Positions 3,346-4,828 of a stretch of DNA of 64,000 bases are shown here, piece by piece (within the stretch, counting starts at the first letter, position 1; each line of letters begins with the position of its first letter). The notes below the pieces were generated by a model. That model was not told the DNA's origin, ran no database searches, and saw nothing but the letters and a program-made list of their open reading frames with translations. The stretch comes from a virus, in the IMG/VR virus record IMGVR_UViG_3300020156_000005, positions 1 through 64,000 of that record, one strand, 5' to 3'. Position numbers and translations under genes: made by a program.

Positions 3346-3365
3346 ATTCTGAGCGGGATTCAGAA

Positions 3366-4011
3366 AAGGTAGAACCTTGGCGGTGTGACTACACCTCATT
3401 CGGCGATGATCGGGAGCACCGCCAAGGTTCTATTCCCTCTCTGCTGTTGCAGTGGGGACAGGACAGAGTATAAGTTACGCTATAGTAGGGGTCTCCTATC
3501 CCCCGAAGAAAGCAATAACAGCGCCATCCTGTCCCCTCTGGAATGTCAGAGTGATCTGAGATTTAGAAGAAGGCTGTACGCTCAGGCGGAAGCCGGGGAA
3601 CAAGTCCCGTGCTGAATCGCCCGTGGCAAGAGTCTGGCTATACTCTATGGTAGCCCCTTGAGATACCCAGAAGTTCTAGACCTGCCCTCGGACGGGGTTA
3701 GGGCGATCACCGCGCCCGGCTTCCGACCCTGAGCGTACAGACAAGGCAGCCCTATGGTTGCGAGGTGTTACCGGTGGTTGGTATCAGCCTTTAGATATCC
3801 CGTCTGAAGGTATTTCGCTTAGGCTCGACGGCAACTGGCGATAGCGTGGGAAACCGGTAACACCTCGGAGTCATTGGGTATGTCTCCTCCATGAAGTTCG
3901 AAGCAACATGGGTAGCGGGCAGAATGCCGTGATCAGCAGAAGAATAGTCCTAGAGAAATGCCATCTCTTCTAGTCTTCGAGAGAAGACGCGCTGATCACG
4001 GCATTTTGTTT
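3366..4011 (+). ncRNA. candidate large structured non-coding RNA (five serial long helices)
   Basis: Perfect helices of 16, 10, 13+11, 15 and 15 bp close domains of 31-115 nt. No credible ORF on either strand. The last helix is followed by TTTTGTTT. Confidence 0.35.
3923..4011 (+). terminator. long-stem hairpin followed by a U-tract
   Basis: aatgccgtgatcagc (3923-3937) pairs with gctgatcacggcatt (3991-4005), followed by TTTGTTT. The interior of about 53 nt contains a further small hairpin. Confidence 0.4.
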
Positions 4012-4428
4012 ACCCTTGACTAGTACTAGTTACCGGATAGCAAACCGCAAGGGCTAGAAGGTAGCGTGGGACCCGGAGCCGGATCAATCACGGCTTGCCC
4101 AGACCTCATCCTGGGCGGCGACAGTTGAAGTGAAAGCTGGAGAGTTAGCCGGGTGGTGTATCCGGGGCAGGTACACCCTTAAACAACACGACCGAGCGTG
4201 TCTAAACCGCCTTAAGCTCGGAGCGTGGCAAGGTATCCTATGGGGATGGGATACCTTGCCGGTGGTCCCCGGTAGCTGTCCGGGGGTAGTGGCGGACTTG
4301 TCCTCCGTCCAAGTCAGGGAATCACGACAAAAGTTCCAAACAAAACAGCCGTGTTTCTAAAGTTTGCCTATTGCACAATTGGCCCTTGTGGCATACACGG
4401 GTGCAACGTGAGATGCCGGGAACACGGA

Positions 4429-4527
4429 CGTGCAGGCACTCTGTAAAGGGTTGCATTCGGGAGATGAGTAGCACCGTACGGACGTGCGGGGCAAAAGTCC
4501 AGAAGGGTTCAAATCCCTTCCTGCACG
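4429..4527 (+). ncRNA. tRNA-like acceptor/T-arm module (not a canonical tRNA)
   Basis: T-arm aaggg-TTCAAAT-ccctt (4503-4519) abuts cctgcacg (4520-4527). That pairs with cgtgcagg (4429-4436) or, with one G-U pair, gtgcggg (4484-4490). No canonical D or anticodon arms can be drawn. Confidence 0.3.
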
Positions 4528-4828
4528 CGCGGAAGATTAGGGGTTGGAAGAAGCCTGGCTCAAGCTATCACAGTTGACGGCCCACCCCGCCGGATAATAA
4601 TGGCTGTGCCTCTTTCCGCACTGGCACAGCAAGTCCAGTATGTCACATAATAGAGACACTGCTTAGATGCAGAACTGGACGCACTGGAACCGGGCTGCAT
4701 ACAAGGTGGAGGGTTAGCGCAGGCGTAAGCGAGAAGTTCTCTCGTGAGCTTAGCCCCTTAGAAGCCGTGGCCCGGTGAAAGTGTCACGCTACCCAAGAGC
4801 CCTGAAGACCCATCAGGAGGAAGTACCC

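What the first reader, a model, noticed from the sequence alone, without database searches (positions are those of the whole stretch)
3346..4828. About 1.5 kb ORF-free, helix-dense region: candidate large ornate ncRNA(s)
Elsewhere in this window genes abut or overlap, yet about 1.48 kb here has no ORF with an RBS or plausible composition on either strand. The region holds a series of non-nested, mostly perfect helices. They are 16 bp (3370-3385/3417-3432), 10 bp (3454-3463/3527-3536), and 13+11 bp with a 2-nt bulge (3574-3597/3715-3740) enclosing a nested 7-bp helix (3616-3622/3701-3707). Further helices are 15 bp (3761-3775/3853-3867), 15 bp (3923-3937/3991-4005, then TTTTGTTT), 12 bp (4227-4238/4249-4260), the tRNA-like 8 bp, 8 bp (4603-4610/4623-4630) and 7 bp (4633-4639/4674-4680). 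Four perfect helices of 15 bp or more within 700 nt cannot be chance. The scale and phage context recall the large structured RNA classes GOLLD, ROOL and HEARO. Alternatives are an sRNA array, a replication or packaging origin, or an attP region.
Basis: partly seen in the sequence, partly recalled or inferred. Interest (0 to 1): 0.8.

Follow-up and report, generated by a model that had tools for sequence, protein, structure and literature searches.

The report
Phage non-coding island with pistol ribozyme
This 1.5 kb gene-free stretch of an actinobacterial phage is not one giant RNA but a string of separate structured RNA elements: a self-cleaving pistol ribozyme, a tRNA look-alike, terminator hairpins and a previously undescribed repeated hairpin.

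Summary
Six of the 25 perfect inverted repeats of 11 bp or more in the 64 kb window lie in this 1.5 kb, and no ORF there has a family match or translated conservation.

No GOLLD, ROOL or HEARO match exists. Relatives carry the same elements in different numbers, and an internal terminator splits the region. So it is a modular + strand RNA island at a locus where related phages carry tRNA genes.

Each helix gets an assignment:
- A hairpin after the upstream gene.
- Three long hairpin modules. Two belong to a new motif with an invariant U-A pair and G•G mismatch at the base and covarying stems (12 copies in 5 phages).
- A terminator-like hairpin with a U-tract.
- A pistol ribozyme at 4186-4267, with predicted cleavage between G4262 and U4263. 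The 12-bp helix is its P3.
- A 98-nt tRNA-like RNA at 4430-4527.
- Hairpins in the leader of the next gene.

Syntenic pistol homologues score 35.8-61.5 bits against an Rfam threshold of 34.5. The window copy scores 32.1. Function is inferred. No expression data were available.

The parts
3345..3365 (+). Small hairpin just after the stop codon (stem 3347-3352/3360-3365). It holds AATTCTGAGCGGG, the exact inverted copy of the leader motif CCCGCTCAGAATT at 2410-2422.
   Evidence: Sequence. CCCGCTCAGA has 5 exact copies in the window. TGAGCGGGG follows the stop codon in all 5 close relatives.
3368..3434 (+). H1: a long hairpin with a 16-bp perfect core, directly after the upstream gene. It may be a terminator without a U-tract or a 3'-end stabiliser.
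   Evidence: z = -6.5. A hairpin at the same position in L007-L010 has a different stem sequence.
3442..3548 (+). Module A: a G•G-base hairpin (U3448-A3542 pair, G3449•G3541 mismatch, 10-bp perfect stem).
   Evidence: z = -2.9.
3574..3740 (+). Module B: a 24-bp (13+11) basal stem with a 2-nt bulge enclosing a branched interior. It lacks the clean G•G base. A helix this long would be an RNase III-type substrate.
   Evidence: z = -5.6. L007 and L009 have long near-perfect hairpins in the same array.
3753..3875 (+). Module C: a G•G-base hairpin (U3759-A3869, G3760•G3868, 15-bp perfect stem) with the flanks GGUUGCG...CGGAGUC.
   Evidence: z = -4.8.
3884..3894 (+). Conserved single-stranded box CUCCUCCAUGA, which contains CCUCC, between the last module and the terminator hairpin.
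   Evidence: Read. Counterparts: CUCCCCCAUGAG in L007, CUCCUCCCAUGAG in L008, CCUCCUCCCACAGUGAG in L010.
3917..4013 (+). H5: a terminator-like hairpin (18-nt arms at 3920-3937/3991-4008) followed by UUUUGUUU at 4004-4011.
   Evidence: z = -7.0. L007, L008 and L010 have a hairpin plus T-rich tail at the same position with different stem sequences.
4019..4030 (.). Perfect palindrome ACTAGTACTAGT, probably a DNA-level regulator or promoter-associated site that marks a new transcription unit.
   Evidence: also at 8571 and 13905 with 1 mismatch each. Contexts. Conserved in L007, L008 and L010.
4031..4185 (+). Conserved structured leader. It has an outer CCGGG/CCCGG helix, a hairpin at 4097-4116 with the loop ACCUCAUC, GGAGAG at 4139-4144, and a covarying hairpin at about 4155-4178. 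A possible 9-codon mini-ORF runs 4153-4182.
   Evidence: This is the only blastn similarity to a relative (4099-4158 against L007). Alignment and folds.
4186..4267 (+). Pistol-class self-cleaving ribozyme.
- P1: 4186-4190/4197-4201.
- Pseudoknot: 4192-4196 with 4217-4221.
- P2: 4208-4211 with 4264-4267 (3 of 4 pairs).
- Predicted cleavage between G4262 and U4263.
   Evidence: Rfam RF02679 scores 32.1 bits, E = 0.0014. A model built without the window finds this as the top hit in the 64 kb. Covariation of P1, pseudoknot, P2 and P3. Homologues.
4268..4429 (+). RNA between the ribozyme cleavage site and the tRNA-like element. It starts with the hairpin CCCCGG/CCGGGG at about 4267-4285.
   Evidence: Sequence. 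L007 also has a hairpin directly after its P2'. Not analysed further.
4430..4527 (+). tRNA-like RNA of 98 nt.
- A 7-bp acceptor stem, GUGCAGG/CCUGCAC.
- A T-arm, AAGGG-UUCAAAU-CCCUU.
- Discriminator G4527.
- A non-canonical body.
- An alternative 5' acceptor strand at 4484-4490.
   Evidence: z = -4.85 on the + strand against -1.4 on the - strand. Not called by ARAGORN or by the Rfam tRNA model. Counterpart at L007 4692-4808.
4574..4601 (+). Promoter-like site TTGACG-16-AATAAT for the downstream gene.
   Evidence: 10 of 12 consensus positions.
4603..4828 (+). Leader of gene 4829-5548. It has hairpins at 4603-4610/4623-4630 and 4633-4639/4674-4680, the conserved GUGGAGGGUU box, and the RBS AGGAGG at 4815-4820.
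   Evidence: z = -3.6. The leader motifs are shared with L007 and L008.

Best explanation
The region is a rightward-transcribed (+ strand) island of small structured RNAs. It sits at the place where related actinophages keep tRNA genes. It is built from independent modules in at least three transcription units.

Unit 1 is a 3' extension of the mRNA of gene 2452-3345. It holds hairpin H1 and then three long hairpin modules. Two of the modules carry a conserved basal motif, 5'-(A)GAUUG-Y...R-GAGUC-3', with an invariant U-A pair next to an invariant G•G mismatch. A CCUCC-containing box follows, and then a terminator-like hairpin with a U-tract. I infer that the conserved base is a recognition or processing signal for a protein or RNase. 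I also infer that the variable interiors, many with C-rich apical loops, are the released or displayed small RNAs.

Unit 2 begins after the palindromic box at 4019-4030. It holds a conserved structured leader and then a pistol ribozyme. The ribozyme cuts between G4262 and U4263. That leaves the ribozyme, with a 2',3'-cyclic phosphate, on the upstream RNA. It frees a downstream RNA of about 265 nt with a 5'-OH end. That RNA ends in a tRNA-like acceptor/T-arm domain, the part of a tRNA recognised by RNase P, RNase Z and the CCA-adding enzyme.

Unit 3 is the promoter and structured leader of gene 4829.

What is shown: the absence of coding signal, the helices, their covariation, the pistol architecture and its homologues, and the tRNA-like top half. 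What is inferred: transcription itself, actual self-cleavage, processing at the G•G base, and any regulatory role.
For: Non-coding status:
- No ORF over 76 aa.
- No PHROG hits.
- No translated conservation, while the flanks are conserved.

Pistol ribozyme:
- The Rfam hit at 4186-4230 scores 32.1 bits.
- Pistol hits in the same gap of relatives: TIN2 35.8 bits and L007 32.5 bits; L020 61.5 bits and GTE7 48.1 bits; and L038, 28.4 bits with my own model R1, not an Rfam score.
- Pistol hits also occur in unrelated actinophages: Pippin15 at 51 bits and Count at 45.9 bits.
- In the hand alignment of five copies, 96% of cells pair and 13 of 20 pairs have changes on both sides, including the pseudoknot. 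None of 500 shuffles reaches the observed paired fraction or covariation score (2 of 500 reach the count of 13 pairs), and slid controls give 30-48%.
- Model R1, built without the window, gives this site as the best hit of the whole window.
- The junction between P3 and P2 is exactly 2 nt, as the class requires (PMC4604425, read).

G•G modules:
- There are 12 modules in 5 phages.
- 92% of cells pair, and 18 of 21 pairs have changes on both sides. None of 500 shuffles reaches this, and slid controls give 29-49%. The U-A pair and the G•G mismatch are invariant.
- The first module after H1 has a different, fully compensated stem in the window, L007/L009, L008 and L010.

tRNA-like element:
- A strict scan for a 5/5 T-stem, a T-loop and a 7/7 acceptor finds elements missed by ARAGORN only in this syntenic gap: the window, L007, ReqiDocB7, L030, L037 and L039.
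- True tRNAs lie in the same gap in Perlina, L014, L034 and L039.

Modularity: gap lengths and element counts differ among the close relatives.

Strand: G-U wobbles lie on the + strand, and the tRNA-like element folds significantly only on the + strand.
Against: - There are no expression data, so transcript boundaries and self-cleavage are predictions.
- The window's pistol scores below Rfam's gathering threshold (32.1 against 34.5). Its P2 has only 3 of 4 pairs. Infernal aligns it with P3 deleted, so the P3 and cleavage-site assignment is my own hand alignment.
- The G•G modules were collected with a pairing rule. The high paired fraction is therefore partly by construction.
- The module family is tiny: five phages, two or three of them close to each other. 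It was not found in IMG/VR, JGI metagenomes or GTDB genomes by pattern.
- The body of the tRNA-like element is not conserved between the window, L007 and L014, so it could be a decaying tRNA gene.
- The function proposed for the G•G base has no direct support.
Confidence: 0.72

Rival explanations
1. One large, ornate non-coding RNA of 1-1.5 kb folds as a unit, in the manner of GOLLD, ROOL or HEARO.
For: The helices are dense and long-range, all on one strand, in a phage and next to tRNA-type elements. GOLLD and ROOL also often lie near tRNAs in phages (my own knowledge). Helices confirmed.
Against: - No Rfam match to any large RNA class, at gathering score or at E<=10.
- The helices are local and non-nested.
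- Relatives at about 60% flanking-protein identity keep 2-4 modules, and some lack the pistol and the tRNA-like element entirely.
- A terminator-like hairpin with a U-tract and a conserved palindromic box interrupt the region at about 4013-4030.
- There is no sequence conservation outside short boxes.
Confidence: 0.06
2. The region is a decaying tRNA-gene cluster and intergenic junk. On this view the hairpins and the tRNA-like element are remnants with no present function beyond transcription termination.
For: Relatives have genuine tRNAs at this locus. The window's tRNA-like element fails ARAGORN and the Rfam tRNA model. The region evolves so fast that blastn finds almost nothing in relatives.
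Against: - Compensatory changes keep the stems intact.
- The U-A/G•G base is invariant across 12 modules.
- The pistol keeps the TAAA, UUA-GC and GAGCG core and the pseudoknot.
- The acceptor stems covary (GUGCAGG/CCUGCAC against GUGCUUG/CAGGCAC).
Confidence: 0.12
3. The region is a DNA-level element: a replication or packaging origin, or an attP site whose core is the 3' half of a host tRNA gene.
For: Inverted repeats are dense. A perfect 12-bp palindrome lies at 4019-4030 and recurs at 8571 and 13905. A tyrosine recombinase gene lies at 18189-19064. Phage attP cores often copy a tRNA 3' end (my own knowledge).
Against: - The stems tolerate G-U but not C-A, so selection acts on one strand.
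- A ribozyme and a tRNA-like element with its own 5' acceptor strand are RNA features.
- The recombinase gene is 14 kb away.
- Cumulative GC skew rises smoothly through the region with no turn.
- The palindrome also sits at ordinary gene starts or after terminators, which fits an operator or promoter element.
Confidence: 0.05
4. The region holds small protein genes that were missed, as in more distant relatives that have annotated ORFs of 35-120 aa between the two flanking genes.
For: Msay19, TIN2, Perlina, ReqiDocB7 and L015 have small ORFs annotated or called in the syntenic gap. L007 has a called 53-aa ORF just upstream of its pistol. The window has a possible 9-codon mini-ORF with a GGAGAG Shine-Dalgarno at 4139-4182, and L007, L008 and L010 have counterparts.
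Against: No ORF over 76 aa. No family hit even at E<=1. No tblastx conservation. Gene callers found nothing. The longest ORFs overlap covarying stems.
Confidence: 0.05

Closest known systems
Pistol self-cleaving ribozyme (Rfam RF02679; Weinberg et al. 2015; Harris et al. 2015, PMC4604425)
   Same: - A P1 hairpin whose loop forms a 5-bp pseudoknot with the P2-P3 junction.
- The conserved UAAA linker.
- The UUA-GC...GAGCG core.
- A P3 hairpin, a 2-nt GU junction and a short P2.
- A location next to phage genes.
   Different: The host group is actinobacterial phages, whereas the class was described mainly from Firmicutes and environmental DNA. P3 is long (12-13 bp or more), which the Rfam model handles badly. 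The window copy scores just under the gathering threshold. It lies inside an RNA island rather than directly after a stop codon, as in TIN2, GTE7, Pippin15 and Count.
Theta (minimal HDV-like) ribozymes next to phage tRNA genes (Kienbeck et al. 2024, PMC10879173)
   Same: A small self-cleaving ribozyme is embedded in a phage tRNA or small-RNA locus, where cleavage is proposed to define the ends of neighbouring structured RNAs without host RNases.
   Different: The ribozyme class differs (pistol, not HDV-like). Here the cleavage site is about 165 nt upstream of the tRNA-like element, not abutting a tRNA 3' end. The hosts are Actinobacteria, not gut Bacteroidota or Bacillota.
Phage T4 tRNA cluster with its stable 'species 1 and 2' RNAs; the MALAT1/mascRNA tRNA-like processing signal (my own knowledge)
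   Same: Non-tRNA structured RNAs are co-located and co-processed with tRNAs. A tRNA-like acceptor/T-arm serves as a processing handle. Rfam gave a weak mascRNA-like hit at 4484-4526 (17.4 bits).
   Different: There is no sequence homology. The window has no true tRNA. Processing has not been shown.
C-rich-loop regulatory sRNAs of Gram-positive bacteria, for example mycobacterial 6C (Rfam RF01066) (my own knowledge)
   Same: Hairpins present C-rich apical loops (CCCCCC, ACCCAC, UCUCCU) that could pair with G-rich ribosome-binding sites.
   Different: There is no Rfam 6C match. The modules are much longer, arranged in tandem, and share a basal G•G motif that 6C lacks.
GOLLD, ROOL and HEARO large RNAs
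   Same: Phage-associated, hundreds of nucleotides of non-coding sequence, often near tRNAs.
   Different: No covariance-model match. The region is modular and variable in copy number, and terminator-like and promoter-like signals interrupt it.

Membership tests
Pistol ribozyme (RF02679) | [quoted passage not shown] | tested here: met
   P1 is ACACG/CGUGU. Loop CCGAG (4192-4196) pairs with CUCGG (4217-4221). In five sequences P1 and the pseudoknot are 100% paired, with double changes in 4 of 5 and 2 of 5 pairs.
Pistol ribozyme (RF02679) | P2 and P3 stems, with a junction of exactly two nucleotides (commonly GU) that carries the cleavage site | tested here: met
   P3 is 4226-4261. The junction is G4262-U4263. 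P2' GGUC pairs with CGCC in 3 of 4 positions (hand alignment). The requirement for a 2-nt junction comes from PMC4604425.
Pistol ribozyme (RF02679) | Highly conserved core nucleotides (linker AAA, UUA-GC, GAGCG) | tested here: met
   The Infernal alignment to the family consensus keeps UAAA, UUAAGC and GGAGCG. The same columns are invariant in the actinophage set. I could not check the paper's figure listing its ten positions.
Pistol ribozyme (RF02679) | Score at or above Rfam's gathering threshold (34.5 bits) | tested here: not met
   The window scores 32.1 bits, E = 0.0014. Syntenic or related copies pass: TIN2 35.8, GTE7 48.1, L020 61.5, Pippin15 51, Count 45.9. Infernal deletes the long P3 in the window alignment, which lowers the score.
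Pistol ribozyme (RF02679) | Mg2+-dependent site-specific self-cleavage | not testable with these tools
   Needs an in vitro transcript of about 4170-4300.
GOLLD / ROOL / HEARO large RNAs | Match to the family covariance model | tested here: not met
   No hit at gathering score in the window, and none at E<=10 in 3200-4950.
tRNA | Cloverleaf recognised by ARAGORN or by Rfam RF00005 (29 bits or more) | tested here: not met
   ARAGORN finds 0 genes in the window. There is no RF00005 hit at E<=10. ARAGORN calls with 292-330 nt 'introns' at lowered thresholds have mismatched acceptor stems and were rejected.
tRNA-like top half (acceptor/T-arm minihelix) | A 7-bp acceptor stem stacked on a 5-bp T-stem with a UUCRANY loop | tested here: met
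   GUGCAGG/CCUGCAC, AAGGG-UUCAAAU-CCCUU, discriminator G. The L007 counterpart has covarying stems.
Intrinsic terminator | Stable hairpin followed directly by a U-tract | tested here: met
   3920-4008 has 18-nt arms, followed by UUUUGUUU; z = -7.0. The simple scanner missed it because the apical part exceeds its loop limit.
attP site | Adjacency to the integrase gene and identity to a host tRNA 3' end | tested here: inconclusive
   The only tyrosine recombinase gene is 14 kb away, at 18189-19064. The host tRNA match could not be searched.

The most novel reading that the evidence does not exclude
The tandem hairpins with the invariant U-A/G•G base are a new class of phage-encoded small-RNA cassettes. 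On this reading a conserved basal signal is recognised by an RNase or a phage protein, which releases or displays variable hairpins. The C-rich apical loops of those hairpins then act on host or phage mRNAs. Together with the pistol ribozyme and the tRNA-like RNA, they would form an RNA-only regulatory or counter-defence island that replaces the tRNA cluster of related phages.
Probability: 0.25. Interest if true: 0.75.

Novelty: new variant of a known kind. Interest (0 to 1): 0.55.

Why it matters
Phage genome annotation mostly ignores non-coding RNA. Several results here bear on that.
- A gap that looks empty is a dense, evolving set of RNA devices.
- Pistol ribozymes have no known biological role. 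They recur at one syntenic position in Gordonia and Tsukamurella phages and their metagenomic relatives, and also in Curtobacterium and Microbacterium phages. In GTE7 and four close relatives (GMA7, Amore2, HayZem, Austin) an annotated 'hypothetical protein' overlaps them, and in the Curtobacterium phages they are not annotated at all.
- These isolated phages have cultivable hosts. That offers a genetic system for asking what a pistol ribozyme does: define mRNA 3' ends, or free downstream small RNAs with a 5'-OH end.
- The G•G-base hairpin is a compact, testable new motif.
- The elongated tRNA-like genes seen only at this locus suggest that phages remodel tRNA scaffolds for other purposes.

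Tried and rejected
- DNA similarity: blastn of the region against 50,697 phage records gave no match. Against the fetched relatives only one 60-nt segment matched.
- Folding energies: sliding 150-nt z-scores do not mark the region out. Element-wise folds were needed.
- A tRNA split by a 292-330 nt 'intron' containing the pistol: ARAGORN suggested this at lowered thresholds. I rejected it because the acceptor stems are mismatched and the 5' halves are not homologous between the window and L007.
- CRISPR-like or RNA anti-CRISPR reading of the conserved inter-module sequence: rejected, because covariation supports pairing within a module, not between neighbouring repeats.
- A promoter inside module A (TTGCAG-N16-TATAAG): not conserved in relatives.
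- Wider search for the G•G module by pattern: IMG/VR gave 0 hits and then 10 hits with no hairpin. JGI metagenomes gave only the known contig plus one unrelated hit. GTDB genomes gave 3 unrelated hits.
- RNAalifold on the 4015-4200 block with four sequences gave a weak, poorly aligned consensus.
- The upstream 297-aa protein (phrog_6708), as a possible RNA-binding or processing partner: no Pfam match, nothing significant in PDB by sequence (best E = 0.05), and an AlphaFold model (pLDDT 78.7, pTM 0.38) with no Foldseek match at E<1.
- RNA repair or ligase genes in the window: none among the 29 window proteins scanned against Pfam.
- More close relatives through the downstream protein: only one cluster above 35% identity.
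- Literature searches found no report of pistol ribozymes or of such RNAs in actinophages. The library is limited to open-access papers.
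Full report
CONTEXT. The window is a phage genome. It encodes a Mu-type portal, a head protease, tail fibres, an AAA-ATPase and a CobT-like pair. By protein similarity its nearest isolated relatives infect Rhodococcus, Tsukamurella and Gordonia, at 40-52% identity. 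The region 3346-4828 lies between two + strand genes. The upstream gene is 2452-3345 (297 aa, phrog_6708, no known function). The downstream gene is 4829-5548 (239 aa, DUF6011). The same contig occurs in public assemblies, and the gene caller used there called nothing in the gap.

THE OBSERVATION. Six of the 25 perfect inverted repeats of at least 11 bp in the 64 kb window lie in this 1.5 kb. Unlike most of the others, they have long loops of 30-140 nt. Folded element by element, the + strand gives z-scores of -2.9 to -7.0. A blind 150-nt sliding window does not distinguish the region from its surroundings, because the helices are long-range. No ORF exceeds 76 aa. None has a PHROG match at E<=1. 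tblastx against the 37 other distinct loci held at that point finds nothing better than E=0.12, while the flanking genes are readily detected.

NOT A KNOWN LARGE RNA. No Rfam family reaches its gathering score anywhere in the window. At E<=10 the region gives no GOLLD, ROOL, HEARO, tRNA, tmRNA or group I intron hit. ARAGORN finds no tRNA or tmRNA.

RELATIVES AND SYNTENY. Homologues of the upstream protein led to four close metagenomic relatives at 59-63% identity: L007, L008, L009 and L010, the last with a duplicate contig L011. They also led to more distant ones: L014-L017 and 23 IMG/VR loci. The gap between the two flanking genes varies:
- 1772 nt in L007
- 1483 nt in the window
- 950 nt in L014
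- about 790 nt in L010
- 736 nt in L008

In other relatives the same gap holds genuine tRNAs. Perlina has three, L014 has Asn, L034 has Gly and Pro, and L039 has Met. Elsewhere the gap holds small ORFs. So this locus is a hot spot for small RNA genes. Nucleotide similarity between the window and its closest relatives is almost nil. Any shared structure is therefore informative.

PISTOL RIBOZYME (4186-4267). Rfam's Pistol model hits 4186-4230 at 32.1 bits, E = 0.0014, just under the 34.5-bit threshold.
- The same model hits the syntenic gap of Tsukamurella phage TIN2 (35.8 bits) and L007 (32.5 bits).
- It also hits a TIN-like UViG, L020 (61.5 bits), and Gordonia phage GTE7 (48.1 bits).
- It hits unrelated actinophages too: Curtobacterium phage Pippin15 (51 bits) and Microbacterium phage Count (45.9 bits).
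- A further copy is at L038.

Infernal aligns the window copy with P3 deleted. It is followed by the 2-nt junction G4262-U4263 and then by P2' GGUC, which pairs with CGCC at 4208-4211. Harris et al. state that the junction length is strictly two nucleotides and that GU is only modestly conserved (PMC4604425). That accommodates the GA junction of TIN2 and L020.

In a 61-column hand alignment of five copies, P1, the pseudoknot, P2 and P3 are 96% paired. Thirteen of 20 pairs have changes on both sides (CCGAG/CUCGG, CUGAG/CUCAG, CAGGG/CCCUG in the pseudoknot). None of 500 shuffles reaches the observed paired fraction or covariation score, 2 of 500 reach the count of 13 pairs, and slid controls give 30-48%. 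A covariance model built from five other actinophage pistols, without the window, returns 4186-4230 as the best hit of the whole window on both strands (20.2 bits, E = 0.005).

I therefore file this as a pistol-class ribozyme, with the caveat that the window copy itself is sub-threshold and untested. In TIN2, L020, GTE7, Pippin15 and Count the ribozyme starts within about 0-20 nt of an upstream stop codon. In the window and L007 other elements lie in between. Pistol cleaves near its own 3' end. The ribozyme therefore stays on the upstream RNA, and the downstream RNA starts at U4263 with a 5'-OH. That follows from the established chemistry of the class. It is inferred here, not shown.

A NEW REPEATED HAIRPIN. 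Between H1 and the terminator-like hairpin, the window and its four close relatives carry 2-4 tandem hairpins of 60-138 nt between the closing U-A pair. Twelve of them share a base of the form 5'-(A)GAUUG-Y...R-GAGUC(U)-3':
- window: 3448-3542 and 3759-3869
- L007: three copies
- L008: two copies
- L009: two copies
- L010: three copies

The U-A pair and the adjacent G•G mismatch are invariant, while the stems above them differ. Anchored on the G•G, 92% of cells pair and 18 of 21 pairs show changes on both sides. None of 500 shuffles reaches this, and slid controls give 29-49%. G-U wobbles in the outer helix place the selection on the + strand.

Caveat: I collected the modules with a pairing rule. 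The less biased evidence is positional. The first module after H1 has the stem GGACAGGA in the window, GCACUGAGA in L007 and L009, GUACUGAGG in L008 and AUACAGAAG in L010, each fully compensated. The covariation also favours pairing within a module over pairing between neighbouring conserved flanks. The C-G to U-A change in L008-1 and L010-1 is matched within the module, which argues against a CRISPR-repeat-like reading.

Apical loops are often C-rich: CCCCCC in the first modules of L007, L008 and L009, and ACCCAC in the second modules of L007, L008, L009 and L010. The motif was not found outside this small clade. Module B (3574-3740) lacks the clean G•G base. It has a 24-bp stem, long enough to be an RNase III-type substrate, and L007 and L009 have comparable hairpins of about 26 bp.

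My working model is that the conserved base is a recognition or processing signal and the variable interior is the payload. This is inference.

TERMINATOR, PALINDROME AND SECOND UNIT. After the modules comes a conserved CCUCC-containing box (3884-3894). Then comes a long hairpin (3920-4008, z = -7.0) followed by UUUUGUUU. Relatives have a different hairpin plus a T-rich tail at the same place. Next is a perfect palindrome, ACTAGTACTAGT (4019-4030). It recurs at 8571, directly upstream of a TTGACA-17-TATACT promoter, and at 13905, directly after a terminator hairpin. It is conserved in L007, L008 and L010. This looks like a DNA-level regulatory site that marks a new transcription unit.

The block 4031-4185 is the only part with detectable sequence similarity to relatives. 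It has a hairpin with the loop ACCUCAUC, a GGAGAG box and a covarying hairpin. A 9-codon mini-ORF (4153-4182) with a good Shine-Dalgarno cannot be excluded.

tRNA-LIKE ELEMENT (4430-4527). It has a perfect 7-bp acceptor stem (GUGCAGG/CCUGCAC) and a canonical T-arm (AAGGG-UUCAAAU-CCCUU). The discriminator is G, and the body is non-canonical. It folds significantly only on the + strand (z = -4.85 against -1.4). L007 has the counterpart, with GUGCUUG/CAGGCAC and GGUGG-UUCGAGU-CCACC, followed by the same GCGCGG.

A strict scan of all loci held at that point (about 300 kb, both strands) finds such elongated elements of 74-167 nt, missed by ARAGORN, only in this syntenic gap: ReqiDocB7, L030, L037 and L039. 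One of them, L037 4191-4313, scores 43.3 bits with the Rfam tRNA model despite a hairpin inserted in its anticodon loop.

The conserved part is the tRNA 'top half', which RNase P, RNase Z and the CCA-adding enzyme recognise (established knowledge). I infer that it serves as a processing or stability handle rather than as a decoding tRNA. A direct repeat, ACGGACGUGC(A/G)GG, at 4424-4436 and 4478-4490, offers an alternative 5' acceptor strand and a 44-nt minihelix. That minihelix is what the weak mascRNA-like Rfam hit covers.

LAST 300 nt. Leader boxes shared with L007 and L008 follow, before the RBS and the ATG at 4829.

ALTERNATIVES. A single large RNA is disfavoured by the modular gain and loss in relatives, the internal terminator and the absence of model matches. 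An origin or attP is disfavoured by strand-specific covariation, the smooth GC skew and the 14 kb distance to the only tyrosine recombinase gene. I could not search host genomes for a matching tRNA. Pure decay is disfavoured by the compensatory changes. Missed small genes are disfavoured.

VERDICT. It is not a GOLLD-like giant. It is a composite island. The pistol ribozyme is a new member of a known class, in a host group where no paper I could find reports it. The tRNA-like RNA belongs to a locus-specific set of remodelled tRNA scaffolds. The G•G-base hairpin array is a new motif with good but narrow comparative support. Interest is moderate to good.

Noticed in passing
window 4019-4030, 8571-8582, 13905-13916; also L007, L008 (two copies) and L010: The 10-12 bp perfect palindrome ACTAGTACTAG(T) recurs. 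One copy lies directly upstream of a consensus promoter (8571). The other two lie just after terminator-like hairpins (4019, 13905). It is probably an operator or promoter-associated site for a phage regulator.
   Followed up: partly
window 2410-2419, 8640-8649, 11272-11281, 23188-23197 (+ strand) and 3348-3357 (- strand): CCCGCTCAGA occurs five times exactly, where about 0.1 copies are expected by chance. Three copies lie 30-42 nt upstream of the start codons of major early genes. The inverted copy directly follows the stop codon of gene 2452-3345, so that gene is bracketed by a perfect 13-bp inverted repeat (2410-2422 / 3345-3357). Relatives keep CCCCGCTCA upstream of the gene and TGAGCGGGG after it.
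   Followed up: partly
window 1-2400: Several very stable local structures lie among the small early genes: 2176-2325 on the + strand (z = -7.2), 376-525 on the - strand (z = -7.0), and 751-975 (z about -4.4). A 296-nt gap at 2156-2451 holds a long hairpin and two promoter-like sites.
   Followed up: no
GTE7 63973-64063 (L024 3892-3975); GMA7, Amore2, HayZem, Austin; TIN2 (L004 3261-3177); Pippin15 (L041 from about 1500), JoyLin, Yotsuba, Eevee; Count (L042 from about 1500): Isolated, published actinophages carry pistol ribozymes. GTE7, TIN2, Pippin15 and Count were scanned and score 35.8-51 bits with Rfam. The other phages listed were found only by blastn to the GTE7 ribozyme. In GTE7 and its four close relatives (GMA7, Amore2, HayZem, Austin) a 'hypothetical protein' annotation overlaps the ribozyme. 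In the Curtobacterium phages it is not annotated. In Count the matched stretch overlaps the end of the upstream NrdH-like gene. In GTE7, TIN2, Pippin15 and Count, where the flanking sequence was read, the ribozyme starts right after an upstream stop codon.
   Followed up: partly
L037 4191-4313; L002 (ReqiDocB7) 2982-2853; L030 3931-4047; L039 4083-4249; L001 (Perlina) 2994-2867: Elongated tRNA-like genes of 117-167 nt have perfect acceptor and T arms (one acceptor mismatch in Perlina) but large insertions. L037's copy scores 43 bits as a tRNA despite a hairpin of about 28 nt in its anticodon loop. ARAGORN misses all of them.
   Followed up: partly
window 4153-4182: A possible 9-codon mini-ORF (GTG start, GGAGAG 8 nt upstream) ends 3 nt before pistol P1. 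L007 and L008 have an 11-codon counterpart and L010 a 33-codon counterpart, with weak peptide similarity (x-[IF]-G-G-x-x-S-L).
   Followed up: no
window 4424-4436 and 4478-4490: The direct repeat ACGGACGTGC(A/G)GG gives the tRNA-like element two alternative 5' acceptor strands. One yields the 98-nt form and the other a 44-nt minihelix.
   Followed up: no
window 18189-19064: A tyrosine recombinase gene (Phage_integrase, E = 1.7e-21) is present, although the nearest isolated relatives are described as lytic. It may be Xer-like or a sign of temperate ancestry.
   Followed up: no
window 3347-3365; L007 3351-3368: The hairpin just after the stop codon, TCTGAGCGGG(G/A), shares the string TCTGAGCG with the P1 stem and loop of the L007, GTE7, Pippin15 and Count pistols (CGTCGTCTGAGCGACG). 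In TIN2 and GTE7 the pistol occupies exactly this position after the stop codon. The hairpin may be a remnant of a displaced ribozyme, or the match may be coincidence.
   Followed up: no
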